A DNA stretch of 63,432 nt from an uncultured Acidobacteriota bacterium (GCA_963702425.1 CAVPCQ010000031.1:1-63432), one strand, 5' to 3'; positions 23,404 through 37,157 are shown, numbered from the stretch's first letter. A program made the numbers and translations. The notes: a model not told the origin generated them from the sequence alone.

Positions 23404-25587
23404 TCAGCGGGCGGCCTGCCGCCGCGCCTCTGCGAGCAGCGCCCGCGCCCGCTCGTCGTCCTGCAGCGCGAGCCCGCGCTCGAGCAGCGGAATCGCCTGC
23501 GCCGGCCGGCCCAGGAGCATCAGGCTGCGCCCCAGGTTGAAGAGCGTCGGAACGTGGTCCGGGTTGGCCGTCAGCAGCGCCGCAAACGCGGCCGCCGCCT
23601 CCTCGTACTTGCCGTCCTTGTCGAACTGCATCGCGGCACTGAAGCGGCTGCGCAGCACGTTCTGGTCCATGGCAGCCGCCTGACGGAAGGCCGCGGCGGC
23701 CGATTCCGGGCGTCCGGCCCGCGCGAAGACCTCTCCCGCGGTCCAGGTCCCCTCGGCCCTCAGTGCGCCGCTGTCGATCCCGCGTTGCGCGAGTTCGATC
23801 GCCTCCTCCGCCCGCCCCTCGAGCATCCGCTTCTGCGCCAGTCGGACCAGCGCCCGCGCCTGGAGCGCCGCCACGCCCGGCTCCTGGGGCATCAGCTCCC
23901 GGGCCTTGGCGAGCGAGCGCAGAGCGGCCTCGAACTGGCCGTCCTCCAGCTCCGCCTCGCCGAGGCCCGCGTACAGGATCCCGAGATCGACGGGCGCGGT
24001 CCGGATCGCCTCGCGGTAGGCCTTGGCCGACTCGCCGAAGTGGCCGAGGCGCTTCTCGGCCAGCGCCAGGCTGCGCCAGATCCGCGGCTGGCGGCTCTCG
24101 ACCGCGAGCGACTTCCGGATCGCCTCGGCGGCCGCGGCGTGCTCCGCCTTCGCCGCTTCGGCCTGTCCCTTGGACTCCAGGTCCTGGGCCCGTTTCGCGT
24201 GCGCGAGCCCGATCTCGTACCAGGCCCGCGCGTTGTCCGGGTACCAGCGCAGCGAGGCCTGCGCCAGGGCTTCGGTCGACCGCCAGTCACCCACGCGGTT
24301 CATCGTCAGGACGAGAAACACGAGCACGATCCCGGTCGTGATGATCCGGCCCGCGCGCACTCCCGCGGCGCCCGTGGCATACCGCGTCAGCAGCCAGCTC
24401 ACGCCAAGCACGAAGCCCGCGAGCGGCAGGTAGAGGAAGCGCTCGGCGTAGAGCACTCCGGCCACGCTGACCGTGTTGAGCGACGGGGCGAGCGGGAACA
24501 GGAAGAGCGCTACCGCGAGCGCCGGGACCGGGTCGAGGCGGCGCGCGACGGCGCGCACGGCCCACGCCACGAGCAGGCCCACCAGCAGCATCCCGGCGAG
24601 AGCGCGGGGTTCGAGGAAGCCCCGGACGATCGCCACCGTCCCGGCGCCATAGAAGTAGTCGTGGGCGACGGGAAAGACCATGAACCGAGCGGAGACGACG
24701 ACCAGCCACAGTGCCGTCGCGAGCCGCACGCCGAGGGGCTGGTCGAACAGCGGCTGGTCGCCGTCGCCCAGCATCGGCACGCCGCCGAGCGCCCCCATCA
24801 GCGCGTAGCGCAGGCCCAGGTAGCCGACGAGGAGCGCAACGGACAGCCCCAGGACCAGCGTCTGGCGTCGTTCGTCGGCGCGTACGGTGCGGCCGGTGGC
24901 GCGGAACGCCAGGTCGGTGACCGCGAGGATGAACGGGAACGAGACCGCGTACTCCTTGCTGAGCATCCCGGCCCCGACGAGGGCCAGGGCCCCCGCCTCC
25001 CAGGCCCACGGGGACGCCTTGCTGCCGGCGAGAAGGTGAAGGATCAGGGCGCCGATCAGCGCCGCCGCCGCCATCATGTCGGCGCGGCCGACGATCGACG
25101 AGACGGCTTCCGTTGCCACGGGGTGGACCGCGAACAGCGCGCCGGCCGCGAGCGCCCACGGGCTGCCGGCCAGGAGCAACGCCACCAGCAGAGTGACCAG
25201 CACGGCGGTCCCGGCGTGGAGCAGCATGTCGGTGACGTGATAGACCTGTGGCGCGTTGCCGAACGCCCGGGCCTCGATCGCATAGGTCAGGGACACCAGT
25301 GGGCGGTAGGAGCGCGTGCCGTAGCTGGCGTCGGCCGGGACCCCCCAGAAATCGTTCGTGAGGAGCCCGGAAAGGGGCTTTTCCTGGACGATCGGGTTGA
25401 GCGTCACGGCCCGTATCGCGTCGCTGATGATGGGTTTCGGGGCGAGCATCAGGTAGGCGAAGAAGGCCAGCGCGGCGATCGCGGCGAGCGCCTTCCAGGA
25501 CGGAAGAGGCGGAGAAAGCGGCGGCGGCGCGGCCGGATCAGGCAGCGGCGACCCCTCTCGTGACGCGCTGGAACGACGCTTCGACAT
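23404..25587 (-). CDS. Second TMTC-like (DUF1736) membrane protein with a long TPR tail
   Basis: NDFWG...SYRPL, YHVTDMLLH, LFAVHPVATEAVSSIVGRAD, MLSKE, YAERFLYLP, WRSTEAL, multiple TPRs. Confidence 0.85.
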   Translation of the reverse strand: MSKRRSSASREGSPLPDPAAPPPLSPPLPSWKALAAIAALAFFAYLMLAPKPIISDAIRAVTLNPIVQEKPLSGLLTNDFWGVPADASYGTRSYRPLVSLTYAIEARAFGNAPQVYHVTDMLLHAGTAVLVTLLVALLLAGSPWALAAGALFAVHPVATEAVSSIVGRADMMAAAALIGALILHLLAGSKASPWAWEAGALALVGAGMLSKEYAVSFPFILAVTDLAFRATGRTVRADERRQTLVLGLSVALLVGYLGLRYALMGALGGVPMLGDGDQPLFDQPLGVRLATALWLVVVSARFMVFPVAHDYFYGAGTVAIVRGFLEPRALAGMLLVGLLVAWAVRAVARRLDPVPALAVALFLFPLAPSLNTVSVAGVLYAERFLYLPLAGFVLGVSWLLTRYATGAAGVRAGRIITTGIVLVFLVLTMNRVGDWRSTEALAQASLRWYPDNARAWYEIGLAHAKRAQDLESKGQAEAAKAEHAAAAEAIRKSLAVESRQPRIWRSLALAEKRLGHFGESAKAYREAIRTAPVDLGILYAGLGEAELEDGQFEAALRSLAKARELMPQEPGVAALQARALVRLAQKRMLEGRAEEAIELAQRGIDSGALRAEGTWTAGEVFARAGRPESAAAAFRQAAAMDQNVLRSRFSAAMQFDKDGKYEEAAAAFAALLTANPDHVPTLFNLGRSLMLLGRPAQAIPLLERGLALQDDERARALLAEARRQAAR

Positions 25588-25673
25588 GATGGCGGGAAAC
25601 CCGATGCTAGCCCGAATCCGCGCCACGCGCCGCGCGGCCGGGGGCCGAAGGGCAGAAAACCGCCGCCAGACCC

Positions 25674-25731
25674 AAAAAAAACGCGTTTCCCGCTTGAATC
25701 TCCCGCGCGGGTAATGCTACCTATAAGCATT
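25674..25731 (+). promoter_or_regulatory. Candidate promoter region of the histone gene
   Basis: A8 tract, TTGAAT (25694-99), AT-rich segment with TATAAG, inverted repeat AATGCT-N7-AGCATT (25713-25731); -35/-10 spacing is not canonical. Confidence 0.45.
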
Positions 25732-25793
25732 GCTTTCGCGTGTGCGGCGCGCGACGTGCCGCCGGATCGTCGAAAGAAGAGGAGCCGAGACAC

Positions 25794-26030
25794 ATGGCGA
25801 AGAAGGCTGCCAAGAAGACCGCCGCGCCGAAGACCGGCAAGGCGAAGGCCGTCGAAATGCTGCTCGTGATGAGCAAGGTCAAGGGCGCCCTCCGCGACCA
25901 CGGGATGAACGTTGCGTCCGACGCCCCCGAGGCGCTGAACAAGGTGCTGTACGACCTCTGCGTGCGGGCAGCGAAGCTCGCCCAGGCCAACGGCCGCAAG
26001 ACCATCCGCCCCTACGATTTCTACGTCTGA
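25794..26030 (+). CDS. Bacterial histone (alpha3 / Bd0055-like histone fold) with Lys/Ala-rich N-terminal tail, 78 aa
   Basis: MAKKAAKKTAAPKTGKAKA + VEMLLVMSKVKGALRDHGMNVASDAPEALNKVLYDLCVRAAKLAQANGRKTIRPYDF: LVxSKVK in alpha1, MNxxxD loop 1, long alpha2, GRKTI-xxx-D loop 2; GAGGAG RBS. Confidence 0.9.
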   Translation: MAKKAAKKTAAPKTGKAKAVEMLLVMSKVKGALRDHGMNVASDAPEALNKVLYDLCVRAAKLAQANGRKTIRPYDFYV

Positions 26031-26044
26031 GGCAGGGGTCTTGA

Positions 26045-26068
26045 GGGGGCGGCCGAAAGGCCGCCCCC
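26045..26068 (+). terminator. Hairpin terminator after the histone gene (possibly bidirectional)
   Basis: GGGGGCGGCC-GAAA-GGCCGCCCCC perfect 10-bp stem, followed by AGCGTTTT; between convergent genes. Confidence 0.75.
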
Positions 26069-26106
26069 AGCGTTTTCGGCCCGCAGGCGCCCGTTTGGGG
26101 CGCCCG

Positions 26107-27195
26107 TCAGGACGCCGTCACCTCCGCGAATCGCTGGAAGAGGTAGCGCAGTCGCGCCCGGTCCGCGGGCAGGACCAGGAACGAGTCCGCCGTGCCGGCG
26201 CGGGCCGCGCGGACGAGGTCGATCGTCGGCCGGTCGGAGCAGGCGACCACCAGCCCGGCGCGGCGCTTCGCGATCGCCGACTCCAGCCGTGACCGCAGGT
26301 CGATCGGTGAGCGACTGACTACGAACAGGGCACTGGCCTGCTGGCCGGCGCCTCCCGAGGAGTAGACCGGGAGCAGCTGGCACCCCGCTTCGGCGAGTGT
26401 CGCCCGCAGAGCCGCCATCGCGCGGTCCGAAGGATTCCCGACGACCTGCACCTTGATTCCCCGCGGGATCTCCGACATCGGGCTCGCTGGATCGTGCGGG
26501 AGGGAAGCCGCCGCGGAGGCACCGTCCGGCTCGACCCGCTCCGCGCCGCCGTCCCCCTTCTCCTCGGCGAGAACCTCGTTGGTGTCGACATCCTCTCCGG
26601 GGGCCAGACGGATCGGTCCTTCGCTGCGATCGCTCGACCCCAGGAGCAGCGCACCGGACTCGGCTCCCTCGATCGTGAGCCGGAAGCCGAGCACGTCCCA
26701 CGGCAGCCCGCGGTCGATCTCCCCGACCAGTGCCGGCCAGGCGCCGGGGGTGAGCCGGCGCACGTCGTCCCCGCGGCTGAAGGCCTGCGTTCCCTCCGGA
26801 GCGCGGGAGCGGACGATCTTCCCGGCGCTGCCGGCGACGATCCCCGCGACCTCTCCGATCGCGTCGCGCAGCACCTCCGGCACCTCGCCGGAGGCCAGGA
26901 CCTCGCGGGCCTGTTCGGCATTCATCAGGCTGAAGGCGGCCCCGGTCGCGACCGCGGCGGGAAGGTCGAGCGCGAGGAACATCGGCAGCGGTCCCCCGTC
27001 CGCATCCACGAACGGGAAGACGAACAGCTCGCGGCCGCCGAAGAGCCCCGGCAGTTCGGCGTGGTCAGCAGGCAGTGCTTCGAGCTGCACCGGCCGGCCG
27101 ACCAGCGCTTCCAGCGATTCCCGCAGCAGCCCGGCGAGCGCCTCGGTCTCGCTGCGCAACACGCGCGCGAGGATGCTGGGCGGGGCCTTGTCCAC
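26107..27195 (-). CDS. CheC/CheX-like domain plus degenerate receiver-like domain
   Basis: GTG start with GGAG RBS; LEALVGRPVQL, DAIGEVAGIVAG (CheC/X-like); C-terminal beta/alpha pattern ending AARAGTADSFLVLP. Confidence 0.55.
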   Translation of the reverse strand: MDKAPPSILARVLRSETEALAGLLRESLEALVGRPVQLEALPADHAELPGLFGGRELFVFPFVDADGGPLPMFLALDLPAAVATGAAFSLMNAEQAREVLASGEVPEVLRDAIGEVAGIVAGSAGKIVRSRAPEGTQAFSRGDDVRRLTPGAWPALVGEIDRGLPWDVLGFRLTIEGAESGALLLGSSDRSEGPIRLAPGEDVDTNEVLAEEKGDGGAERVEPDGASAAASLPHDPASPMSEIPRGIKVQVVGNPSDRAMAALRATLAEAGCQLLPVYSSGGAGQQASALFVVSRSPIDLRSRLESAIAKRRAGLVVACSDRPTIDLVRAARAGTADSFLVLPADRARLRYLFQRFAEVTAS

Positions 27196-27482: not shown

Positions 27483-28949
27483 ATGCGTGTCGACCCCATT
27501 CCGATCGCGCCCCCCGTGCACCCGTCCGAAGCCGGCCCCGCGCGGGGCGGCGAGACTGCGTCACGGGCAGCCGCCCCGGGCCAAGGCTTCGAGAGCGCGA
27601 TCGACGCCGCCGAACGGACCGGGGGTGCGGAAGCCCGGCGCGGGGAGACGCGCGAGACGCGCGAGAAGCACGCCGCCAACCGGGAGAGGCCGGCGACCGA
27701 ACGGGCGCATGCCGGGCCGGAACAGGCGGACCCGCCGCCGCCATCCGTCGCCGCAGCGTCCGGTGCCACACCGGAGCAGGCCGCACTCCAGGCGGCTCCG
27801 AGCCTACGCCTGCGCGGTCACGCCGCGCCGTTGGCGCGGCGCGGCGCGCTGCCCGGAGCGGTGGGTGCGCCCGAGTCCGGTGCCGTGCGCGCCACCGGCG
27901 CCGCCGGCGAAGCGCCCGTCGACGCGTCGCGCGAACGCTCCGCGCGCACGACCGCCCCGGCCGTGCTCGCGGCGATCCGGGGCGAGAGCTGGCGCGGTAC
28001 GGAGCCCGGCGTGCTCGGTGCAGATGCGAGGCCGAGGCAGGCGGCCCGGGCCGAGGGGAGTTCCGCGGACGCCGCGCTCGGCGACGCTGCCACGGCGAAC
28101 GCAACGCTACGGGCCCGAATGGCCGGAACGCTTCTCGACGGGACACGCCATGCGTCCGGCTCCGCCGCCGCGCCCGGGACGGCGGCAGCGGCGCGCGCGG
28201 ATGCCGCGCCCGCTGCAGGCCCGGCCCCGGATGCAGCGCGGCGCGCCGAGCGTGACACTTCTTCCCAGCCGGATGCGGCCGCGCCCGCGAACGACACGCA
28301 CGCCGCGGGTGAAGCGCGGGCGCCGGCGCGCGCGACGGCGAGCCCGGCGGCGGGAGACGATGCCGGCGGCGCGCAGGGGAACGCGCGCCGTTTCGCGACG
28401 CGGGCGGAGGACGCGGCCCTGGCCGGGGGCGCCGCGCGCAGCGGCCCGACCGGCGCGGCCGGCAGCGCGGCCGCTGTCCCGGGTGCCGCCCGCGGAGCGT
28501 CCGCGGCGATCGTCGAGCAGGTCGCGACCCGTCTCGCGCAGGCAGTTCCCGGGGGGGCGGTCACGATCCAGCTGGAGCCTGCCGACCAGGGTCGCGTGCA
28601 TGTCACCTTCCGCTGGAGCGGCCGCGAGCTGACGGTGCGGGTCGCCGCGGAGCAGGGCGAGGTGGCGGCGCTGCTCGCCGCGGACCTCGGCAAGCTCGAG
28701 ACTTCCCTGTCACGCCTCGCCGACCCGGTGAAGGTCGAGGTCCCGGTCGACGGCTTCGCCGACCCGCGCTCCGGCGCCGGCGGCGGTCAGCACGGCGCCC
28801 CGGCCGGCGAGCGCGCTCCCGACGGCTCGCCTGCGGCGCGACGCGACGGTGCGGAGCCGCGCCCGGAGCGGCGCGGGCTCCCGTCCGGCCCCGACCCCGC
28901 GCGCCGCGGCACTCCGGCGGGCGCCGCGCGGCTGGACGTTCTCACCTAG
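27483..28949 (+). CDS. fliK: Flagellar hook-length control protein
   Basis: Low-complexity Ala-rich N-terminus; C-terminal VTIQLEPADQGRVHV...L..L..SL domain; upstream of flgD. Confidence 0.75.
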   Translation: MRVDPIPIAPPVHPSEAGPARGGETASRAAAPGQGFESAIDAAERTGGAEARRGETRETREKHAANRERPATERAHAGPEQADPPPPSVAAASGATPEQAALQAAPSLRLRGHAAPLARRGALPGAVGAPESGAVRATGAAGEAPVDASRERSARTTAPAVLAAIRGESWRGTEPGVLGADARPRQAARAEGSSADAALGDAATANATLRARMAGTLLDGTRHASGSAAAPGTAAAARADAAPAAGPAPDAARRAERDTSSQPDAAAPANDTHAAGEARAPARATASPAAGDDAGGAQGNARRFATRAEDAALAGGAARSGPTGAAGSAAAVPGAARGASAAIVEQVATRLAQAVPGGAVTIQLEPADQGRVHVTFRWSGRELTVRVAAEQGEVAALLAADLGKLETSLSRLADPVKVEVPVDGFADPRSGAGGGQHGAPAGERAPDGSPAARRDGAEPRPERRGLPSGPDPARRGTPAGAARLDVLT

Positions 28950-29018
28950 CACCCGGCAATTCCTTCCCACCGCGCGCGCGCGGCCCCGCCGATCCCCCGC
29001 TCTCCGCACCGTCGACGC

Positions 29019-29034
29019 TGGCACGCCCGTTGCT
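29019..29034 (+). promoter_or_regulatory. sigma54 promoter (flgDE)
   Basis: TGGCACGCCCGTTGCT, near-perfect -24/-12 consensus. Confidence 0.85.
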
Positions 29035-29061
29035 CTTCACCTCCGCGAGGAGAAACAAAGT

Positions 29062-29760
29062 ATGGACAGCGGTGCCAACGTCCTGCTCGACCCCAACGTC
29101 TACCGCGTCGTCCAGGGGGACAACCCCTACGCGACGGGGAGCGAGTCGCTCGGCCGGAACGACTTCATCAGGCTGCTGGTCACGCAGCTCGAGAACCAGA
29201 ATCCACTCGATCCGCCCAAGGACACGGAGTTCGTCGCGCAGCTCGCGACCTTCTCCAGCCTCGAGCAGCTGATCGACCTCAACCAGCGGATCGACGCCGT
29301 GGCGCAGGGGCAGGCGCAACTGGTCAACAGCCAGTCGCTGAACCTCGTCGGCAAGGCGGTGCTCGCGCCAGGCGACGGGAAGATCCGGCTGGGCGAGGGG
29401 GGCGCGGACCGGATCGTCTACGACGCGCCGGACGGCACCGCGCAGGTCAAGATCGAGATCTTCGACAGCTCCGGCGCGATGGTCCGCACGCTCGACGGGT
29501 CGGCCGGTGCGGGGCGCCAGAGCGCGACCTGGGACGGCCATGACGAGGCCGGGACCGCGCTCGCGACGGGGACCTACTCGTACCGCGTGCGCGCGATTGG
29601 GAGCGACGGCAGCGAGAAGCTCCTGCCCGGCATGGTGAAGCTGACGGTGGACGGGATCCACCTCGGCGAGGACGGACTGTCCCTGATCTGCGGCGATCGG
29701 CTGATTCCGTTCGACCAGGTGGCGGAGATCCTCCGCGCCGACGACGAAGCGACGAACTGA
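29062..29760 (+). CDS. flgD: Flagellar hook cap protein
   Basis: LGRNDFIRLLVTQLENQNPLDP...FVAQLATFSSLEQ; Ig-like WDG domain. Confidence 0.95.
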   Translation: MDSGANVLLDPNVYRVVQGDNPYATGSESLGRNDFIRLLVTQLENQNPLDPPKDTEFVAQLATFSSLEQLIDLNQRIDAVAQGQAQLVNSQSLNLVGKAVLAPGDGKIRLGEGGADRIVYDAPDGTAQVKIEIFDSSGAMVRTLDGSAGAGRQSATWDGHDEAGTALATGTYSYRVRAIGSDGSEKLLPGMVKLTVDGIHLGEDGLSLICGDRLIPFDQVAEILRADDEATN

Positions 29761-29794
29761 CGCAGCTGGGCGAAAAGACGAGGAGAACGGGACG

Positions 29795-31144
29795 ATGGGT
29801 GCGAGTGCCTTCTACGCGGGACTCACGGGGCTGAACGCCAACGCGGCGGCCCTGGCCACGATCGGCAACAACCTTGCGAACACCAACACGATCGGGTTCA
29901 AGACGGGGCGGACCAACTTCGCCCAGCTGTTCGCGCCCGGCGCAGCGGCGGTCAACGGCGCCGGCGTGCCGCAGCAGATCGGCCTCGGCGTGACCGTGTC
30001 GGGCGTCCAGACGCTGTTCACCGCCGGCTCGCTGCAGCCGACCGACGTCGTCACCGACATGGCGCTGCAGGGGGGCGGGTTCTTCACGCTCGAGACGCAG
30101 GAAGGGCTGTCGGTCTTCTCCCGGGCCGGCAACTTCTCCTTCAACTCCCAGGGAAACCTGGTCAACGACAACGGCTTCCGCGTCCAGGGCTACACGCAGA
30201 AGGACGCGGACGGCAAGGTCGTCACGACCGGCGTGCCGCAGGACATCGTGATCCCGGCCGGGCTGACCGCGCCGCCGCAGGCCTCGGGCTACTTCCAGGC
30301 CTCGATGAACCTCCAGAACGGCGCGACCCAGCCGTTCGTCACCGGGATCAACGTCTTCGACTCGCTCGGCGCGCAGCACGACGTCACGCTGGTGATGACG
30401 CCCACCTCCTTCGCGCCGACCGGCGCGGTGTGGGGCTGGGAGGCGCGGGTGCCCGCGGCCGACATCGCGGGCGCCCCGACCGGGCCGACCGACCCCGAGT
30501 ACATCGTCGTCGCCACCGGCACGATGACCTTCGACGGCAACGGCCAGCTGGTCGCGAACACGATGACCGGCTGGACGCCGCCGACGACCGAGACCCCGCC
30601 GATCTACGACCTGCCGCTGGTCTTCGACGCCGCCAACAACACCGGCTGGGCGAACGGCGCTTCGGCCCAGACCGTGACCTGGAACGTCGTCGACCCGAAC
30701 ATCGCCGCGCCCCAGCGCGTCGGCCTGATCACCGGCTACGACGCCCCATCGGAGATGGATGGCCTGTCCACGGACGGTTACGGCGTCGGGCAGCTGCAGA
30801 GCCTGGCGGTCAGCGCCGACGGGCTGATCGCGGGCGTCTTCACCAACGGCCAGACGCTCGAGCTGGGCCAGCTCGCGGTCGCCTCGTTCAACAACTCGGC
30901 CGGGCTGCAGAACTACTACGGCAACACCTACATCTCATCCCTCGGGTCGGGTCCGCCGGCCCTGGGGATCGCCGGGACCGGCGGCCGGGGCACGGTCGTC
31001 TCCAAGGCGCTCGAGCTGTCGAACGTCGACATCACCGACCAGTTCACCCAGATGATCGTCGCCGAGCGCGGCTACCAGGCGAACACCAAGATCATCACCA
31101 CGATGGACCAGTTGGCGCAGGAGACGATCAACATCAAGCGCTAG
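29795..31144 (+). CDS. flgE: Flagellar hook protein
   Basis: IGNNLANTNTIGFK, SRAGNF, LELSNVDITDQFTQMIVAERGYQAN. Confidence 0.95.
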   Translation: MGASAFYAGLTGLNANAAALATIGNNLANTNTIGFKTGRTNFAQLFAPGAAAVNGAGVPQQIGLGVTVSGVQTLFTAGSLQPTDVVTDMALQGGGFFTLETQEGLSVFSRAGNFSFNSQGNLVNDNGFRVQGYTQKDADGKVVTTGVPQDIVIPAGLTAPPQASGYFQASMNLQNGATQPFVTGINVFDSLGAQHDVTLVMTPTSFAPTGAVWGWEARVPAADIAGAPTGPTDPEYIVVATGTMTFDGNGQLVANTMTGWTPPTTETPPIYDLPLVFDAANNTGWANGASAQTVTWNVVDPNIAAPQRVGLITGYDAPSEMDGLSTDGYGVGQLQSLAVSADGLIAGVFTNGQTLELGQLAVASFNNSAGLQNYYGNTYISSLGSGPPALGIAGTGGRGTVVSKALELSNVDITDQFTQMIVAERGYQANTKIITTMDQLAQETINIKR

Positions 31145-31286
31145 CCGGAAAAAACGGAGGGGCCGGGCGGCGCGCCGTCAAACATCCGACGGGGCGCCGC
31201 CGGCACCCCGCCGGGAAACCCCGGTCCGGTTTCCGGACAATCGTCGCAACTGTCGTCCGATCAGTCGGATAGCCGCGCCCTCCGCG

Positions 31287-31302
31287 CGGCACACGGCTTG
31301 CT
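31287..31302 (+). promoter_or_regulatory. sigma54 promoter (fliN-fliO-fliP operon)
   Basis: CGGCACACGGCTTGCT; GG-N10-GC. Confidence 0.75.
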
Positions 31303-31374
31303 GAAAAGGCCTTCGCACGGGAAGTGTGCGGTCCGTCGCCGCGACGGTGGCGGGACCGCTCCGGGAGCGCTGCG

Positions 31375-31716
31375 ATGGCCGAGACCCAGGCGGGACGCAA
31401 GGACGAGAAGACGGCCGCGACCGGCGCGGGCCCGGCCCCGGGCTCCGCGCCCTCCGACGCCGCGCGCGCCGCGGCGTTCGTGCGCCGCGAGTTCAGCGCG
31501 TTGCCGATCGAGCTGTCAGCGCGGATCGCGGCCGGCCGGGCGAGCCTGTCCGAGCTGCGCGGCCTCGCGCCCGGCAAGGTGCTGCCGCTCGAGACGCCGA
31601 TCGGCGAGCCCTGCCGGCTGATCGCCGAGGGGGCCGTGATCGGCGCGGGGGAAATCGTCGAGGTCAAGGGACAGCTTGCGCTGCGTGTCACGCGGCTCGG
31701 CAAGGACAATGGCTGA
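31375..31716 (+). CDS. fliN: FliN/SpoA-domain switch protein
   Basis: LPIELSARI...L.PGKVLPL...GEP...IGAGEIVEVKGQLALRVT. Confidence 0.8.
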   Translation: MAETQAGRKDEKTAATGAGPAPGSAPSDAARAAAFVRREFSALPIELSARIAAGRASLSELRGLAPGKVLPLETPIGEPCRLIAEGAVIGAGEIVEVKGQLALRVTRLGKDNG

Positions 31717-32110
31717 AGCCGGCGCGCCCGGCCTGCTCGATCTGCTGCGCCTGGCGGGCGCGCTGGCCGCGGTCGTCGGCCTCGTCTGGCTGTTCGGCAG
31801 GCTAGCGCAGCGCGGCGGCGCGGCAGCCCGGTCGGCGGGGTCACTGGCCGTTCGCGAGCGGATCGCGGTCAGCCGCGGCGTGCAGCTGCTGGTCGTGGGC
31901 GTGGACGGGCGCAGCCTGCTGGTCGGCGTCACCGGGCAACAGGTGAACCTTGTCGCGGACCTTTCGCGGCCGGGCGAGGTCGGCACGGCGGCCGCTCCAG
32001 CCCCGGTCGCACGGCCCCTGGCGCACGCTGCACCCGGCGGGCCGGGCGCGCCGGCGTCACCGACCTTCGCCGAGCGGCTCGCGGCCGCGCTGCGCGGGAG
32101 GAGCGCGTGA
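31709..32110 (+). CDS. fliO: Flagellar export protein FliO
   Basis: One TM helix followed by LLVVGVDGRSLLVGVTGQQVNLV; position before fliP. Confidence 0.8.
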   Translation: MAEAGAPGLLDLLRLAGALAAVVGLVWLFGRLAQRGGAAARSAGSLAVRERIAVSRGVQLLVVGVDGRSLLVGVTGQQVNLVADLSRPGEVGTAAAPAPVARPLAHAAPGGPGAPASPTFAERLAAALRGRSA

Positions 32111-32898
32111 GCACCCCGCGCGCGCGGCGCGCGCTGCTGGCGCTGCTCGTGGCGCTGACCGCCTTCGCGGTGCTGCCCGCGGTGGCGTCGCCCGCCCCGC
32201 CCCCGGCGTCGCCCGCCCCCGCCGGGCCCGGCGGTCTCGAGCTGCGCATCACCGACCCCGTCGGCGGTGCCCCGGGTTCCACCGCGCTACGGATCGTCCT
32301 GATGCTGACGGTGCTCGCCGTCGCGCCCGCGATCCTGCTGATGATGACCTCGTTCGTGCGGTTCGTCGTGGCGCTGCACTTCCTGCGCCAGGCGCTCGGC
32401 ACGCCTCAGATGCCGCCCAACCAGGTCGTCGTCGGCCTGGCGCTGTTCCTGACCTTCTTCGTGATGGGCCCGACCCTCGAGCAGGTCCGCGCCGAGGCCT
32501 GGGTTCCCTACACCGCGGGGCAGATGGACGCCCAGCAGGGGCTCGACGCAGCGTCGGGCCCGATGCGCGAGTTCATGCTGCGCAACACGCGCGAGGCCGA
32601 CCTCGGGCTGTTCGTCAAAATGGCGAAGATCCCGCGCCCCGCGACCTCCGCCGACGTGCCGCTGCGGGTGGTGGTGCCGGCCTTCGTGATCTCCGAGCTG
32701 CGGGCCGGGTTCGAGATCGGGTTCCTGCTGTTCCTGCCGTTCCTGGTCGTCGATCTCGTCGTGTCGTCGGTCCTGCTGTCGATGGGCATGATGATGCTGC
32801 CGCCGTCGATGGTCTCGCTGCCGTTCAAGATCCTGCTCTTCGTGCTGGTCGACGGCTGGAGCCTGCTCGCGGGCTCGCTCGTCGCCGGCATCCGCTGA
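32107..32898 (+). CDS. fliP: Flagellar export gate FliP
   Basis: MMTSF, LRQALGTPQMPPNQ, PAFVISEL, MGMMMLPP, LPFKILLFVLVDGW. Confidence 0.97.
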   Translation: MSTPRARRALLALLVALTAFAVLPAVASPAPPPASPAPAGPGGLELRITDPVGGAPGSTALRIVLMLTVLAVAPAILLMMTSFVRFVVALHFLRQALGTPQMPPNQVVVGLALFLTFFVMGPTLEQVRAEAWVPYTAGQMDAQQGLDAASGPMREFMLRNTREADLGLFVKMAKIPRPATSADVPLRVVVPAFVISELRAGFEIGFLLFLPFLVVDLVVSSVLLSMGMMMLPPSMVSLPFKILLFVLVDGWSLLAGSLVAGIR

Positions 32899-32914
32899 CC
32901 GGAGGAAGCCGCCG

Positions 32915-33184
32915 ATGGACGAGATGACGGTCCTGACGATCGGCCGCGAGGCGATCCGCACCGCGCTGCTGGTCGGCGCGCCGATCCTGCTGGTCGGGAT
33001 GGCCGTCGGCCTGATCGTCAGCGTGATCCAGGTCGCGACCTCGATCCAGGACGTGACCGTGACGTTCATTCCCAAGATCCTCGCGGTCTTCCTGGCGACG
33101 CTGCTCACCCTGCACTGGATGATGCGACTGATGATCGAGTTCACGCAGCGCGTGTTCGCGATGATCGCCGGCGTGAACGCGTAG
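32915..33184 (+). CDS. fliQ: FliQ
   Basis: VGLIVSVIQVATSIQDVTVTFIPKI. Confidence 0.95.
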   Translation: MDEMTVLTIGREAIRTALLVGAPILLVGMAVGLIVSVIQVATSIQDVTVTFIPKILAVFLATLLTLHWMMRLMIEFTQRVFAMIAGVNA

Positions 33185-33191
33185 ACGCGCG

Positions 33192-33986
33192 ATGCTCGCC
33201 GAGGCCGCAGGCGTCGAGGTGATCCGCCTCCCGTGGAACCAGCTCCTCGGGGGAGCGGCGCTGCTCGTGCGCATCGGAGCCTTCCTCACGGTCGCGCCGG
33301 TCTTCGGCACCGAGGCCGCACCGCCGCAACTGCGGGCGGGCTTCGCCGTGCTGCTGACGGCCCTGCTGCTGCCGGTCGTGCCCGCCCCGGACCTCTCGGC
33401 CGGGATCCTCGGGCTGGTCTTCGGCGAGGCCTTCGTCGGCTTCCTGCTCGGCTTCTCCGCGCTGACGGTGATCGAGGTCGCCGCGGTGGCCGGCGACTTC
33501 GTCGGCTACCCCACGGGGCTCTCGCTGGCGCAGCAGTTCGACCCGGTGACGCAGAGCCAGGCCACGACCGCGAGCGTCTTCTACCGCTTGCTGGGCCTGC
33601 TGGTCTTCATCACGATCGGTGGCCACCACCAGATGCTCGCCGCGCTCGGCGAGTCGTACCGCATCGTGCCGGTCGGCGGCGCGCACTTCGCGACCGGCTG
33701 GCTGCCGTCGATGGTCGCGCTGACGGGCCGGACGCTGGCGCTCGGGCTGCAGATGGCCGCGCCCGTGCTGGTCGCGGGGCTGCTCGTGGACGTCTTCCTG
33801 ATGCTCATCGCGCGCGCCGCGCCGCAGATGAATCTCCTGGTCGTCGGCGCGCCGATCCGGCTGGCGATCGGCCTGCTCGCGATCGCATTCTCGCTCCAGA
33901 TGCTCGCCCCGCTGCTGGGCGAGGCGGTCGACGCCTCGCTCCACGACGCCGGCCGCTCGCTCGAGGCGCTGGCGGGAAAGCCCTGA
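33192..33986 (+). CDS. fliR: FliR
   Basis: APVFG, AGDFVGYPTGLS...FDP, IARAAPQMN. Confidence 0.93.
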   Translation: MLAEAAGVEVIRLPWNQLLGGAALLVRIGAFLTVAPVFGTEAAPPQLRAGFAVLLTALLLPVVPAPDLSAGILGLVFGEAFVGFLLGFSALTVIEVAAVAGDFVGYPTGLSLAQQFDPVTQSQATTASVFYRLLGLLVFITIGGHHQMLAALGESYRIVPVGGAHFATGWLPSMVALTGRTLALGLQMAAPVLVAGLLVDVFLMLIARAAPQMNLLVVGAPIRLAIGLLAIAFSLQMLAPLLGEAVDASLHDAGRSLEALAGKP

Positions 33987-33993
33987 GACGGCG

Positions 33994-35091
33994 ATGGCGG
34001 CGGACCGCGACAGAAGGACCGAGAAGCCCTCCGGCCGAAAGCAGGAGAAGGCGAAGGAGAAGGGGCAGGTCGCGCGCAGCCAGGACCTCGGGCAGGCGGC
34101 GAGCCTCGGAGCCTTCCTGCTCTGGGCCTTGCTCTCCGGCGCGTCCTTCCTGGCCGGGCTCTCGGCCTACCTGGTCGCCGCGCTGCGCGCGGCCGGCCGC
34201 CCCCCTTCGGACGGGGCACTGCTCGACTCGCTCCTCAACGCGGGGACGGTCGCGATGCGGCTGATGCTCCCGCTGCTGTTCACGATCGCCGCGGCCGGGC
34301 TGCTGTCCCAGGCGATCCAGGGGCTGCACATCCGGAAGCCGCTGCTCAAGGTCGACTTCGCCAACCTCAACCCGGTCAACGGCCTCAAGCACTTCGTCAG
34401 CGTCGAGAAGCTCGTCGCCGCCGGCAAGGCGCTGCTGCGCGCCGGCTGCTACGCCGCACTTGCGGCCGCGGTCGTGCTGCCGGAGTGGGACCGCGTGGCG
34501 CAGCTCGCGCTCGCTTCTCCTGCCGGGATCCTGGCCGGAACCACCCGGATCGTCGGCCGCGTGCTGGTCCGGGCGCTCGTGCTGGGCCTCGTGATCGCGG
34601 CCGCCGACTTCGCGTTCGCCCGCTGGCGCTGGTACCGGAACCTCTACATGACCAAGCAGGAGGTGCGGGACGAGCACCGCGAGAGCGAGGGGAGCCCCGA
34701 GGTCCGCTCGCGGATCCGCGCGCGGCAGCGCGAGCTGGCGCGGCGCCGGATGATGGCCGCGATCCCCACCGCCAACGTCGTCGTCACCAACCCGACCCAC
34801 GTCGCGGTCGCCCTGAAGTACGACCGCGCGAAGATGGCCGCGCCGGTCGTGGTCGCGAAGGGGAAGGGGCTGATCGCGCAGCGGATCAAGGAGATCGCGC
34901 GCGAGCACCGCGTGCCGATCGTCGAGGACCCGCCGCTGGCGCGGATGCTCGAAAAGGTCTGCAAGCTCGGCGCGCCGATCCCCGAGACCCTGTTCCGCGC
35001 CGTGGCCGAGGTCCTGGCCTACGTGATGAACCCGCAGCGTCGCGCGCTCCGCCCGCACCCTGAAGTCGAGCCGGCCGGGACCACGCCGTGA
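33994..35091 (+). CDS. flhB: FlhB export switch
   Basis: RTEKPS, GQVARSQD, MTKQEVRDE..ESEGSP, NPTH autocleavage site. Confidence 0.96.
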   Translation: MAADRDRRTEKPSGRKQEKAKEKGQVARSQDLGQAASLGAFLLWALLSGASFLAGLSAYLVAALRAAGRPPSDGALLDSLLNAGTVAMRLMLPLLFTIAAAGLLSQAIQGLHIRKPLLKVDFANLNPVNGLKHFVSVEKLVAAGKALLRAGCYAALAAAVVLPEWDRVAQLALASPAGILAGTTRIVGRVLVRALVLGLVIAAADFAFARWRWYRNLYMTKQEVRDEHRESEGSPEVRSRIRARQRELARRRMMAAIPTANVVVTNPTHVAVALKYDRAKMAAPVVVAKGKGLIAQRIKEIAREHRVPIVEDPPLARMLEKVCKLGAPIPETLFRAVAEVLAYVMNPQRRALRPHPEVEPAGTTP

Positions 35092-37157
35092 GCACGGTCG
35101 CGATCAACCGCCCGGTCCACCCGCTGGCCTCGCTCGGCCTGCCCGCGCTGGTCATCGCCGGCGTGGCGATCATCGTCGTCCCGCTGCCGACGATCCTGAT
35201 CGACCTGCTGGTCACACTCGACCTGGCGCTCTCGATCGTGATCCTGATGACCGCGATGTACGTCCCGGGTCCGACGAAGTTCAGCGCCTTCCCATCGCTG
35301 CTGCTGGTGATCACCTTCTTCCGGCTGGCGCTCAACATCGCCTGCACGCGCGCCATCCTGCTGCACGGCAGCGAGGGGACCGACGCCGCGGGCAAGGTGA
35401 TCGAGGCCTTCGGGCAGTTCGTCGTCGGTGGGAGCTTCGTCGTCGGAATCGTCGTCTTCCTGGTGATCCTGATCGTCCAGTTCGTGGTCATCGCGCACGG
35501 CTCGACCCGCATCTCGGAGGTCATCGCGCGCTTCACCCTGGACGCGATGCCCGGCAAGCAGATGGCGATCGACGCCGACCTCAACGCCGGGCTGATCACC
35601 GAGCGCGAAGCGATCGGGCGGCGGCTCTCGATCCAGAAGGAGGCCGAGTTCTTCGGCGCGATGGACGGCGCGGTGCGGTTCACGCAGCGCGACGCGATTG
35701 CGGCCTTCCTGCTGGTGGCGATCAACATCACCGCCGGGCTGACGATCGGGATCGTCCAGCTCGGGATGGTCCCCGGCGAGGCCATGCGGACCTACACCGT
35801 GCTGACGATCGGCGACGGCCTGGCGACGGCGATCCCGGCGCTGCTGGTCGCGCTGGCCGGCGGCATCATCACGACCCGCGCGGCGCAGGAGCAGGCGCTG
35901 GGCGAGGTGCTCTACGCGCAGCTGATGCTGCAGCCCAGGCCGCTCAAGATCGCGGCCGGCACGCTGCTCTCGCTGGCGCTGATCCCGGGGCTGCCGAAGG
36001 TGGCCTTCGTGCTGCTGGCCGCGGCGGTCTACGGCGGCGCGCGCGTGGCCGCCGACCGCGTCGCGGAGGCAGCCGAACAGGGGCCCGAGCTGCCGGCGAC
36101 CGCGCCGGACAAGGCGGCCGAGGACGAGGTCGAGTCGCTGCTCGGGGTCGACCCGCTCTGCATCGAGGTGGGGTACGACCTGATCGCGCCGATCGGCGCG
36201 GACCGGGCCGGCGGGATCCTGGACAAGATCAAGGGGCTGAGGCGCCAGATCGCGACCGAGGAGGGGTTCGTCCTCCCGCCGGTCCGGGTGCGCGACAACC
36301 TCTCGCTCCCCGCCGACGCGTACCAGATCCTGATGCGCGGCGTGAAGATCGCCGGCAGCCGGATCCCGCGCGGCCGGCTGCTGGCGCTCGACGCCGGCGC
36401 GTCGCGGCCCGTCGAGGGGGAGCCGACGAAGGACCCCGCGTTCGGGCTGCCGGCGGTCTGGATCGCGCCGGACAAGGCGGACGACGCGCGCGGCGCGGGC
36501 TACACGGTCGTCGACCCGGCGTCGGTCCTCTCGACCCACCTGATGGAGGTGATCCACCGCAACGCGGCCGAGCTGGTCTCGCGCGACGACGTGGCGCGCC
36601 TGCTCGACCACCTGCAGAAGACCCACCCCAAGGCGCTGGCCGAGCTGGTGCCGGAGCGGCTCACGGTGGGCGAGGTCCACCGCACGCTGCAGGGGCTGCT
36701 GCGCGAGGGGATCCCGGTCCGCGACCTCGCGCTGATCGTCGAGGCGATGGCCGACGCCGCAGGCTCGTCGCGCGATCCGCAGGTGATCGTCGAGTCGGTC
36801 CGGCGCGCCCTGGCGCGGCCGGTCACGGCGCCGCTGGTCGACGGCGCGGGGATTCTCAAGGCGGTCGTGCTCTCCCCGGAACTCGAGGAGGAGTTGACCG
36901 CCGGGCTGGTCCCGGAAGCGGCCGATCGCGCCCCCGGCGGGATGCTGCCGGCGCGGGCGCGCGAGATCGTGCAGCGGCTGGCAACGGCGGTGGCCTCGGC
37001 CTCGGCCGCGGGGAGCGACGTGGCGATCGTCACCGGGCCGCGGCTCCGGCCCTCCCTGGCGCAGCTCGTCCGCGCCGTGCTGCCCCACACCAAGGTGCTC
37101 TCCACGCTCGAGATTCCGCCGGAGGTGACGCTCCGGGCGGTGGGGACGGTGTCCTGA
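35088..37157 (+). CDS. flhA: FlhA export gate
   Basis: FPSLLL, ARFTLDAMPGKQMAIDADL, FFGAMDGA, LTIGDGL, PPVRVRDN. Confidence 0.97.
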   Translation: MSTVAINRPVHPLASLGLPALVIAGVAIIVVPLPTILIDLLVTLDLALSIVILMTAMYVPGPTKFSAFPSLLLVITFFRLALNIACTRAILLHGSEGTDAAGKVIEAFGQFVVGGSFVVGIVVFLVILIVQFVVIAHGSTRISEVIARFTLDAMPGKQMAIDADLNAGLITEREAIGRRLSIQKEAEFFGAMDGAVRFTQRDAIAAFLLVAINITAGLTIGIVQLGMVPGEAMRTYTVLTIGDGLATAIPALLVALAGGIITTRAAQEQALGEVLYAQLMLQPRPLKIAAGTLLSLALIPGLPKVAFVLLAAAVYGGARVAADRVAEAAEQGPELPATAPDKAAEDEVESLLGVDPLCIEVGYDLIAPIGADRAGGILDKIKGLRRQIATEEGFVLPPVRVRDNLSLPADAYQILMRGVKIAGSRIPRGRLLALDAGASRPVEGEPTKDPAFGLPAVWIAPDKADDARGAGYTVVDPASVLSTHLMEVIHRNAAELVSRDDVARLLDHLQKTHPKALAELVPERLTVGEVHRTLQGLLREGIPVRDLALIVEAMADAAGSSRDPQVIVESVRRALARPVTAPLVDGAGILKAVVLSPELEEELTAGLVPEAADRAPGGMLPARAREIVQRLATAVASASAAGSDVAIVTGPRLRPSLAQLVRAVLPHTKVLSTLEIPPEVTLRAVGTVS

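What the first reader, a model, noticed from the sequence alone, without database searches (positions are those of the whole stretch)
25674..26068. Stand-alone bacterial histone with a eukaryote-like lysine-rich N-terminal tail
Seen: a 78-aa gene with its own RBS, AT-rich upstream region and strong hairpin, so probably monocistronic. Residues ~20-78 show the pattern LVMSKVK...MNVASDA.EAL...LC..A...A.ANGRKTIRPYDF. Residues 2-19 (AKKAAKKTAAPKTGKAKA) are a low-complexity basic tail with 7 Lys and 2 Thr. Established: the fold pattern matches short-alpha3 prokaryotic histones such as Bdellovibrio Bd0055, which keep the RKT and R-D clamp. Bd0055 and HMf have no such tail, while eukaryotic tails are the main modification targets. 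Inference: the RKTxRPxD ending suggests the face-to-face tetramer type. This may be a histone-based bacterial chromatin with a modifiable tail. Pipelines would likely call it hypothetical or choose an overlapping shadow ORF.
Basis: partly seen in the sequence, partly recalled or inferred. Interest (0 to 1): 0.88.

Follow-up and report, generated by a model that had tools for sequence, protein, structure and literature searches.

The report
Tailed bacterial histone, a known kind
This small gene of an uncultured Acidobacteriota bacterium encodes a true bacterial histone with a floppy lysine-rich N-terminal tail, but tailed histones of this type are widespread in bacteria and were described in 2024, so it is a new member of a known kind.

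Summary
Window 25794-26030 (+) encodes a 78-aa protein with a disordered Lys/Ala-rich tail (residues 1-20) and an alpha3-truncated histone fold. The fold matches Leptospira HLp at TM 0.95 and Bdellovibrio HBb at 0.84-0.88.

The tail is very likely translated. A Shine-Dalgarno site plus ATG is kept across genera, tail GC3 is 0.95 against 0.67 upstream, and 12 of 13 variable sites within the genus are synonymous.

The tail is not unusual. All 119 of the 120 best homologues whose core start could be located carry a basic tail of at least 10 aa. So do 47 of 102 single-fold cluster representatives. Schwab et al. 2024 state that positively charged tails are common in bacterial face-to-face (FtF) histones.

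The family profile prefers the FtF tetramer HLp (83 bits) over HBb (59 bits). A four-copy model gives the FtF interface.

Three modest additions:
- The lineage is Acidobacteriota.
- This genus has Leu where FtF histones keep an interface Arg.
- Metatranscriptome contigs from four studies cover tail and core.

Lysine modification was not tested. Verdict: new member of a known kind; interest about 0.3.

The parts
25694..25727 (+). Upstream block (TTGAAT at 25694-25699, TATAAG at 25722-25727) that is nearly invariant within the genus. It may be a promoter, but this is not established.
   Evidence: Alignment of 6 same-genus loci. The 22-nt gap between the hexamers does not fit sigma-70, and the consensus scan found 0 promoters.
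25744..25793 (+). Probable 5' untranslated leader. Contigs from RNA libraries of three studies begin at 25744 or 25745.
   Evidence: table 8: X15 and X16 start at 25745 and X20 at 25744, each at the contig's own end with no loose end. This is a weak hint only, because contigs cannot prove an RNA start.
25778..25783 (+). Shine-Dalgarno sequence GAGGAG, 10 nt before the ATG.
   Evidence: Window sequence. An SD-like GGAG or GGAGG precedes the Lys-rich-tail ATG (mostly MAKK or MARK) in most of the 13 loci examined, across several genera; L021 was not resolved and L017 was judged by eye.
25794..25853 (+). Codons 1-20: disordered Lys/Ala/Thr/Pro-rich N-terminal tail (7 Lys, no acidic residue).
   Evidence: Translation. 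pLDDT is below 50 for residues 1-16. GC3 is 0.95 against 0.67 in the 54 nt upstream. Within the genus there are 2 synonymous changes and 1 replacement (T14A).
25854..26030 (+). Codons 21-78 plus stop: alpha3-truncated histone fold. It has alpha1 26-34, alpha2 44-65 and a short alpha3 73-75, with S27-K28, N66, R68-K69-T70 and D75.
   Evidence: AF2 model. Foldseek gives HLp TM 0.94-0.95 at rmsd 0.6-0.7 A and HBb TM 0.84-0.88. Nearly invariant columns are listed.
26045..26076 (+). G+C hairpin (26045-26068) followed by AGCGTTTT; a likely intrinsic terminator.
   Evidence: Fold of -33 kcal/mol, z -1.73. The stem is kept in the genus with a G-U change and loop changes. One RNA-library contig (X16) ends at 26076. 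The consensus terminator scan did not call it.

Best explanation
The gene encodes a nucleoid-associated histone of the alpha3-truncated, face-to-face (FtF) family of bacteria, in an uncultured Acidobacteriota bacterium.

Shown here:
- Residues 21-78 form a histone fold nearly superimposable on Leptospira HLp.
- Residues 1-20 are a disordered basic tail that belongs to the reading frame and is a family-wide feature.
- The gene is single-copy and persists through its taxonomic family.
- It is present in contigs of RNA libraries from four studies.

Inferred from HLp and HTkC: two chains make the handshake dimer. Two dimers then close face to face, through the end of alpha2, loop 2 and alpha3, into a ring-shaped tetramer. 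This tetramer binds DNA without sequence preference through the L1/L2 loops (R68-K69-T70 held by the R68-D75 clamp) and the alpha1 Ser-Lys motif, and wraps roughly 60 bp.

Inferred from composition: the four tails add 28 lysines per tetramer. They would act as flexible DNA-binding arms that neutralise phosphate charge and raise affinity, and possibly reach a neighbouring duplex. This resembles the Lys/Ala-rich tails of H1-like bacterial proteins rather than a sequence-specific, eukaryote-style signalling platform.

In this genus the usual interface Arg is Leu (L62), and an Arg sits one helical turn earlier (R58). I read this as a re-wired but retained interface, not as a lost one.
For: Fold:
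- AF2 gives mean pLDDT 81, with the core at 89-95 and residues 1-16 below 50.
- Foldseek gives HLp 9qt0_A TM 0.95 at rmsd 0.6 A, HBb 0.84-0.88, HTkC 0.86 and HMfB 0.61.

Family:
- A profile of 121 homologues hits HLp at E 9.9e-23 (83 bits), HBb at 3.3e-15 (59 bits) and HTkC at 1.6e-13.
- N66 and R68, which match HLp N53 and R55, are each present in 120 of 121 rows.

Tetramer:
- A four-copy model of residues 20-78 scores 0.85 against a best control of 0.01. The mark was reached by 20 of 30 proteins solved as pairs of one chain and by 1 of 23 solved as single chains.
- The runs agree in at least 90% of contacts and the partner's pLDDT is at least 89.
- The second interface uses residues 58, 61-62, 65-66, 68, 72, 74 and 77-78. 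These map onto the HLp interface residues R49, S52, N53, R55 and T61.

Tail translated:
- SD plus ATG is kept across genera.
- GC3 is 0.95 in the tail against 0.67 upstream.
- 12 of 13 variable sites among 6 same-genus loci are synonymous.
- Tail-less homologues in other families of the phylum start with their own SD just before the core. The conserved Met22 is therefore a core residue, not a start.

Tail is general:
- 119 of the 120 best hits had a locatable core start, and all 119 have a tail of at least 10 aa. The median is 23 aa with a K+R fraction of 0.48.
- 47 of 102 single-fold representatives have a basic tail.
- The tails of 2 of 121 members hit Pfam HC2, the H1-like protein family.

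Persistence: 4 of 4 same-genus and 19 of 22 same-family genomes carry it, in one copy in the window's own genome.

RNA libraries: contigs cover 25745-25969, 25745-26076, 25778-26009 and 25744-26032 in runs from four studies.

Published mechanism for HLp: it is a tetramer in solution and wraps about 60 bp (abstract; section 7).
Against: - L62 replaces the Arg (HLp R49; R48 in the FtF profile) that both papers call conserved in FtF tetramers. Only 4 of 121 rows have Leu, and all 4 belong to this clade.
- As a single sequence, the protein scores the same against HLp (34.4 bits) and the dimeric HBb (34.0 bits).
- The complex score is dominated by the handshake dimer. The calibration used two copies, my own alignment was used, and HLp and HTkC tetramers are solved. 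The pass may therefore be recall of those structures.
- This tail is less basic than the family median (7 of 20 against 0.48).
- The genome also has four HU/IHF genes, so the histone need not be the main organiser.
- No DNA binding, abundance or modification was measured here.
- The hairpin's energy is not beyond shuffles (z -1.73), and no consensus promoter was found.
Confidence: 0.62

Rival explanations
1. It is a dimer-only DNA bender like Bdellovibrio HBb. Loss of the interface Arg (L62) would have abolished the face-to-face tetramer, and the tail would compensate for lost avidity.
For: L62 sits at the HLp R49 position, and HBb also lacks an Arg there (alignments). Schwab 2024 reports that bacterial dimer histones lack R48 and N52. 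The single sequence scores equally against HBb and HLp.
Against: N66 is kept, whereas HBb has Asp at that position. The family profile and the structural fit favour HLp. The four-copy model places L62 and R58 in a confident second interface. All 4 Leu62 rows carry R58, against 12 of 117 other rows with R or K at 58; this is one clade and so one event.
Confidence: 0.2
2. The tail is a regulated platform in the eukaryotic sense. Its lysines would be reversibly acetylated or methylated to tune chromatin compaction or to recruit readers.
For: This rests on analogy only. The tail is disordered, Lys-rich and exposed. Schwab 2024 calls bacterial FtF tails 'H3-like positively charged' and discusses, then doubts, ZZ-domain readers.
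Against: Tail sequences are not conserved beyond the first residues (MAKK in 93 of 119) and overall composition. That argues against position-specific reading. No modifying enzyme lies next to the gene here, or in the 6 related loci scanned. Tail-less orthologues exist in the same phylum.
Confidence: 0.1
3. Translation starts at the internal Met22, so the tail is never made.
For: Met22 is highly conserved in the family's core-start motif (consensus). A weak AAGG lies about 8 nt upstream of it. For HLp, the shorter annotated form was judged authentic from its SD position.
Against: A strong SD plus ATG at 25794 is conserved across genera. Tail GC3 is 0.95. Purifying selection acts in frame. The tail is kept in frame in 119 of 119 homologues with a locatable core start. 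Tail-less relatives start 2-10 residues before the equivalent Met, not at it.
Confidence: 0.04
4. It is a histone-fold transcription factor or a partner subunit, not a general chromatin protein.
For: Weak Pfam matches to CBF/NF-Y and TFIID-18kDa. HU/IHF genes are present in the genome.
Against: These matches are below cut-off, while the best matches are the DNA-organising HLp and HBb. There is a single copy and no partner histone gene in the genome.
Confidence: 0.04

Closest known systems
HLp of Leptospira perolatii (PDB 9QT0-9QT2), a bacterial face-to-face histone (Hu et al. 2025, PMC12701072)
   Same: Same alpha3-truncated fold (TM 0.95, rmsd 0.6 A, 40% identity over 55 columns). It shares the N53 and R55 equivalents, the RD clamp and the Ser-Lys motif of alpha1. 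It is the best profile hit, and the tetramer interface region is the same in the model.
   Different: HLp was studied as a 63-aa form in which only the first 7 residues are disordered. The protein here has a 20-aa Lys-rich tail and two extra C-terminal residues. The HLp R49 position is Leu62, and S52 and T61 are Ala65 and Tyr74. Leptospira is reported to lack HU, whereas this genome has four HU/IHF genes.
Tailed bacterial FtF histones as a group (Schwab et al. 2024, PMC11390915)
   Same: This is the class that fits. [quoted passage not shown] That is exactly what searches show for this family, including proteins from Halobacteriovorax and Bacteriovorax.
   Different: The main text names Spirochaetota, Planctomycetota, Bdellovibrionota (Bacteriovoracia) and Myxococcota as the main bacterial hosts. 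'Acidobacteri' has 0 occurrences in the main text, and I could not see the supplements. This genus also lacks the profile's R48.
HBb / Bd0055 of Bdellovibrio bacteriovorus (PDB 8CMP, 8FVX, 9EZZ), a bacterial dimer histone
   Same: Short-alpha3 fold (TM 0.84-0.88), the RKT motif with RD clamp, and a stand-alone gene. There is no Arg at the R48 position.
   Different: HBb has no basic tail, since alignment starts at its residue 2-4. It has Asp where this protein keeps Asn66. It is reported to act as a DNA-bending dimer or as a filament. The family profile scores it 24 bits lower than HLp.
Lys/Ala-rich tails of H1-like bacterial nucleoid proteins (Pfam HC2, PF07382) and of eukaryotic linker and core histones
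   Same: A disordered, Lys/Ala/Pro/Thr-rich basic segment attached to a DNA-binding fold. The tails of 2 of 121 family members hit PF07382 (best E 8.6e-5).
   Different: This is similarity of composition only. No homology can be shown for such low-complexity sequence, and this protein's own tail gives no Pfam hit. Modification of the tail was not tested.

Membership tests
alpha3-truncated prokaryotic histones (Schwab 2024) | Histone fold with an alpha3 of only 3-4 residues | tested here: met
   The AF2 model has helices 26-34 and 44-65 and a 3-residue turn at 73-75. The top Foldseek hits are HLp, HBb and HTkC.
alpha3-truncated prokaryotic histones (Schwab 2024) | An alpha2 that is 4-5 residues shorter than in nucleosomal histones | tested here: met
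   The phmmer alignment to an archaeal nucleosomal histone (9qv6) needs a 4-residue gap in the query's alpha2. The TM to HMfB is only 0.61.
alpha3-truncated prokaryotic histones (Schwab 2024) | RxTxxxxD motif (RD clamp plus loop-2 Thr) | tested here: met
   R68, T70 and D75 are present, and each is nearly invariant in the 121-row alignment.
Face-to-face (FtF) histones | Predicted ring tetramer through the alpha2 C-terminus, L2 and alpha3. The paper says the class is defined by this prediction. | tested here: met
   The four-copy model scores 0.85 against a best control of 0.01. The mark was reached by 20 of 30 proteins solved as pairs of one chain and by 1 of 23 solved as single chains. The second interface lies at residues 58, 61-62, 65-66, 68, 72, 74 and 77-78. 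Caveats: the score is dominated by the dimer, the calibration held two copies, and solved HLp and HTkC tetramers may have been remembered.
Face-to-face (FtF) histones | Conserved interface Arg (profile R48; HLp R49) | tested here: not met
   Position 62 is Leu. In the 121-row alignment it is R in 98 rows, K in 19 and L in 4, and the 4 Leu rows are all from this clade. R58, one helical turn earlier, is present in all 4.
Face-to-face (FtF) histones | Conserved interface Asn (profile N52; HLp N53) and Arg (R54; HLp R55) | tested here: met
   N66 and R68 are each present in 120 of 121 rows.
Face-to-face (FtF) histones | Sequence closer to the bacterial FtF cluster than to bacterial dimer histones | tested here: inconclusive
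   The family profile gives HLp 83 bits against HBb 59 bits. The single sequence gives 34.4 against 34.0 bits.
Face-to-face (FtF) histones | Stable tetramer in solution and wrapping of about 60 bp of DNA | not testable with these tools
   This needs SEC-MALS, tethered-particle or MNase assays, as were done for HLp.
Bacterial dimer histones (HBb type) | Lacks both R48 and N52 of the FtF profile, with no confident multimer larger than a dimer | tested here: not met
   The Arg is absent but the Asn is present (N66), and a larger assembly is modelled with confidence.
Eukaryote-type core histones with regulatory tails | Full-length alpha3, heterodimer partners, and tails with position-specific modification | tested here: not met
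   The alpha3 is truncated. There is a single histone gene in the genome. Tail positions are not conserved. Modification is not testable here.

The most novel reading that the evidence does not exclude
The basic tail would be a modular, lineage-specific switch of chromatin mode whose lysines are reversibly modified. Acidobacteriota carry tailed (78-83 aa), short-tailed (72 aa), tail-less (61-67 aa) and acidic-C-tail (132 aa) versions of one core. A re-wired tetramer interface (R58/L62) occurs in this genus. Together these would be a natural series showing histone-tail regulation arising independently in bacteria.
Probability: 0.1. Interest if true: 0.75.

Novelty: new member of a known kind. 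Interest (0 to 1): 0.3.

Why it matters
Bacterial histones are a young field. In the papers I read, only HBb and HLp had structures and DNA-binding data, and HLp was studied as the 63-aa form in which only the first 7 residues are disordered. What the common basic tails of bacterial FtF histones do is therefore still open.

This locus adds little in principle, but it does offer useful material:
- A lineage (uncultured Acidobacteriota from freshwater and sediment samples) in which the histone is vertically persistent.
- Tail-less relatives in the same phylum, for comparison.
- A natural Arg-to-Leu variant of the tetramer interface.
- Contigs in RNA libraries from four studies that cover the gene.

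It also shows that Pfam and NCBIfam thresholds miss this family, so such genes are widely left as 'hypothetical'.

Tried and rejected
- Promoter and terminator scans found no site in 25500-26200, so the promoter remains unassigned.
- The only Rfam match on both strands of 25300-26400 was 'P24' at 20 bits against a gathering score of 100, which I treat as noise.
- Pfam and NCBIfam on the protein gave only sub-threshold histone hits.
- The listing of cluster members on 10 homologues gave almost no names and did not help with taxonomy.
- RNA-library contigs gave no cover over 25000-25743 or 26077-26800 in any of the 4 runs laid. No DNA run was laid beside them, because the cap was 1 call.
- Short pieces in X19 and X20 (records 4, 6, 7, 8) match only the low-complexity tail codons and continue into other Lys/Ala-rich sequence. 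They come from other genes.
- Neighbour scans of the window and of six related loci found no acetyltransferase, deacetylase, methyltransferase or SMC next to the gene.
- I considered an upstream GTG start at 25740. I rejected it because GC3 there is 0.67 and the extension is not conserved in relatives.
- I considered the overlapping minus-strand ORFs 25721-26005 and 25449-25901. I rejected them in favour of the frame with homologues.
- No phylogenetic tree was built. The core has about 58 residues and most rows carry no taxon label.

Full report
WHAT IS THERE

Window 25794-26030 (+) translates to a 78-aa protein, P0001. Residues 1-20 are a Lys/Ala/Thr/Pro-rich segment with 7 Lys and no acidic residue. 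GAGGAG lies at 25778-25783, 10 nt before the ATG.

The neighbours on both sides are on the minus strand. Upstream is a 740-aa membrane/TPR protein at 23404-25626. Downstream is an ORF with no family match, starting at 26107. The gene therefore stands alone.

After the stop there is a perfect 10-bp G+C stem with a GAAA loop (26045-26068), followed by AGCGTTTT. Its energy is not exceptional for this 72% G+C DNA: z is -1.73, and 11 of 200 shuffles fold as well. The simple scans called neither a terminator nor a sigma-70 promoter. The upstream region is only mildly less G+C-rich, at 0.64-0.65 against 0.68-0.77.

IS IT A HISTONE?

Curated libraries give only sub-threshold hits:
- DUF1931 at 19.8 bits (cut-off 21.8) and CBFD_NFYB_HMF at 16.9 bits (cut-off 21.4).
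- NCBIfam archaea_histone at 21.8 bits (cut-off 50).

Against solved structures the protein matches three bacterial histone sequences by sequence:
- HLp of Leptospira perolatii (9QT0) at E 2.3e-7.
- HBb/Bd0055 of Bdellovibrio (8CMP and 8FVX) at E 3.1e-7 and 3.8e-7.

Archaeal HMfB follows far behind, at E 0.47.

An AlphaFold2 model built on 121 homologues has mean pLDDT 81. The core blocks score 89-95 and residues 1-16 fall below 50. The helices are 26-34 and 44-65, with a one-turn alpha3 at 73-75.

Foldseek against the PDB gives these matches:
- HLp at TM 0.94-0.95, rmsd 0.6-0.7 A.
- HBb at TM 0.84-0.88.
- HTkC at TM 0.86.
- HMfB at TM 0.61.

The refutation test 'no histone-fold match in structure searches' therefore fails. 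It is an alpha3-truncated histone in the sense of Schwab et al. 2024 (passages seen).

IS THE TAIL REAL?

Four lines of evidence say that it is.
1. In most of the 13 loci examined, from the same genus and from other genera of the family, an SD-like GGAG or GGAGG precedes an ATG that opens a Lys-rich tail, mostly as MAKK or MARK. L021 was not resolved by the script, and for L017 I judged the start by eye.
2. GC3 is 0.95 in the tail codons and 0.93 in the core, but 0.67 in the 54 nt between an upstream GTG and the ATG.
3. Among six same-genus loci, 13 sites vary. Twelve are synonymous third positions and one is a replacement (T14A). Two synonymous changes and the replacement lie in the tail.
4. 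Other families of the same phylum have tail-less homologues of 61-67 aa. These start with their own AAGGAGG 2-10 residues before the conserved Met of the core-start motif. That Met is therefore a core residue, not a hidden start.

RNA libraries add some support. I laid four runs from four studies. Each holds a contig, 95-99% identical to the window, that covers leader, tail and core together:
- X15 covers 25745-25969.
- X16 covers 25745-26076.
- X19 covers 25778-26009.
- X20 covers 25744-26032.

Three of these start at 25744 or 25745, at the contig's own end. One ends at 26076, the last T after the hairpin. Contigs cannot prove RNA ends, and no DNA run was laid beside them. I treat this as a weak hint of a transcript of about 330 nt.

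IS THE TAIL UNUSUAL?

It is not.
- The word-indexed search found 246 homologues. Of the 120 best, the core start could be located in 119. All 119 have an N-extension of at least 10 aa, with a median of 23 aa, a maximum of 46 aa and a median K+R fraction of 0.48. Of these, 93 begin with MAKK, and only 8 tails contain any acidic residue. One of the 120 (P0071) failed my motif but also has such a tail.
- They include named proteins of Halobacteriovorax and Bacteriovorax.
- In the exhaustive search of 50%-identity representatives there were 147 hits. Of these, 144 match the core profile, 102 with one fold and 42 with two. Of the 102 single-fold proteins, 73 have an N-extension of at least 10 aa, and 47 of those are basic.

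This is already in print. Schwab et al. [quoted passage not shown] Hocher et al. 2023 said that most bacterial singlets lack long tails. For part of that analysis they kept only proteins of 65 aa or less.

This protein's tail, at 7 K in 20 residues, is if anything less basic than the family norm.

FACE-TO-FACE TETRAMER OR DIMER?

Schwab 2024 reports the same motif in bacterial dimer histones. The published discriminators are an Arg and an Asn at the end of alpha2: R48 and N52 in the FtF profile, which are R49 and N53 in HLp. Together with R55, these build the dimer-dimer hydrogen-bond network.

The alignment maps the HLp residues onto this protein as follows:

| HLp | This protein |
|---|---|
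| R49 | L62 |
| S52 | A65 |
| N53 | N66 |
| R55 | R68 |
| T61 | Y74 |
| D62 | D75 |
| F63 | F76 |

In the 121-row alignment, position 62 is R in 98 rows, K in 19 and L in 4. The 4 Leu rows are this protein and its three closest cluster representatives. N66 and R68 are each present in 120 of 121 rows. All four Leu62 rows have Arg at 58, one helical turn earlier, where 87 rows have Gln. That is one clade and hence one event. It suggests the Arg moved rather than vanished, but this is inference.

The family profile clearly prefers HLp, at 83 bits and E 9.9e-23. HBb gets 59 bits and HTkC 54 bits. The single sequence does not discriminate, at 34.4 against 34.0 bits.

A four-copy prediction of residues 20-78 passed:
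- The score is 0.85 and the best of 3 controls is 0.01.
- The mark was reached by 20 of 30 proteins solved as pairs of one chain and by 1 of 23 solved as single chains.
- The runs agree in at least 90% of contacts, and the partner's pLDDT is at least 89.
- Besides the handshake partner, the scored chain touches a third chain at residues 58, 61-62, 65-66, 68, 72, 74 and 77-78. This is the FtF interface region.

The caveats are those the tool itself states. The score is dominated by the dimer. The calibration used two copies and other alignments. HLp and HTkC tetramers are solved, so the pass may show likeness and not binding.

My reading is an FtF-type tetramer with a re-wired interface at about 0.6, and an HBb-like dimer at about 0.2.

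ORGANISM AND DISTRIBUTION

A MAG record with a 99%-identical gene is titled 'uncultured Acidobacteriota bacterium'. For the window's FlhA, 9 of the 120 hits listed carry an organism name. Eight say Acidobacteria or Acidobacteriota, and one says only 'bacterium'.

The genome held is 5.1 Mb in 42 contigs and 91% complete. It has one histone copy and four ordinary HU/IHF genes without basic tails.

The histone was found in these samples:
- 4 of 4 same-genus genomes and 19 of 22 same-family genomes.
- 24 of 41 genomes in that sample of relatives, G000 included.
- 22 of 301 genomes sampled across the phylum, searched with the family profile.

So it is vertically persistent in this family and patchy elsewhere. 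Within the phylum the core occurs in several forms:
- a long basic tail (78-83 aa in total);
- a short basic tail (72 aa);
- no tail (61-67 aa);
- once, a long acidic C-terminal extension (132 aa).

'Acidobacteri' does not occur in the main text of the three key papers. A library search for Acidobacteriota together with 'histone fold' or 'bacterial histones' found 13 papers holding two of the three terms. Ten were listed, and none of them contains 'Acidobacteriota'. Supplements were closed, so the lineage may still be listed there.

HOW IT MOST LIKELY WORKS

Shown here: the fold, the disordered tail, conservation, and presence in RNA libraries.

Inferred from HLp (abstract and sections 6-7 read): dimers pair into a ring tetramer that binds DNA non-specifically and wraps about 60 bp.

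Inferred from composition: the four tails, with 28 Lys per tetramer, act as flexible DNA-binding arms that neutralise charge, in the manner of H1-like Lys/Ala-rich tails. Supporting this, the tails of two family members hit Pfam HC2.

The tail keeps its composition but not its positions, and tail-less orthologues exist in the same phylum. This fits a bulk electrostatic role better than position-specific signalling. No modifying enzyme is a neighbour here or in six related loci. Reversible lysine modification remains possible but is unsupported.

VERDICT

It is wrong on the diagnostic motif and on the rarity of the tail, and the modification idea is untested. This is a new member of a known, recently described kind, with interest of about 0.3. 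The useful residue is a natural series for testing what bacterial histone tails do: tailed, tail-less and interface-variant forms of one core.

Noticed in passing
L030 (G091:C9:88606-89397): A second histone copy in another Acidobacteriota genome has the same core but a long acidic, Glu/Asp/Ala-rich C-terminal extension. It is 132 aa from an SD-preceded ATG. This is the opposite charge logic to the basic N-tails.
   Followed up: no
L023, L024, L025, L034, L035: These are tail-less homologues (61-67 aa) in other families of the same phylum. Each has its own SD directly before the core. They form a natural tail-less comparison set.
   Followed up: partly
window 27483-37157: A flagellar gene cluster lies on the + strand: FliK-like (27483-28949), FlgD (28849-29760), FlgE (29795-31144) and FlhA (35088-37157). 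The organism is therefore probably motile.
   Followed up: partly
window 10985-15169: A 1394-aa protein made largely of FG-GAP repeats (13 stretches, E 2.8e-110).
   Followed up: no
window 23404-25626 (-); L018:3-1658 (-); L020:1-975 (-): The divergent upstream neighbour is a large membrane/TPR protein in the window. In two other genera it is a TMTC-like (DUF1736) protein, so the arrangement may be conserved. No functional link to the histone is evident.
   Followed up: partly
proteins P0123-P0258: 42 of the 144 representative hits that match the core profile contain two histone folds in one chain (doublets of about 115-150 aa). A few hits are very long proteins (650-2782 aa) with a fold-like or low-complexity match.
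   Followed up: no
window 25797-25841, runs X19 and X20: Short metatranscriptome contigs match only the tail codons and then continue into other Lys/Ala/Pro-rich coding sequence. They probably come from other tailed proteins in the same communities.
   Followed up: no
window 25634-25727: The intergenic stretch, which includes an A8 run and the TTGAAT...TATAAG block, is almost invariant across six same-genus loci. It is more conserved than the synonymous sites of the gene. It may hold divergent promoters or a regulatory site.
   Followed up: partly
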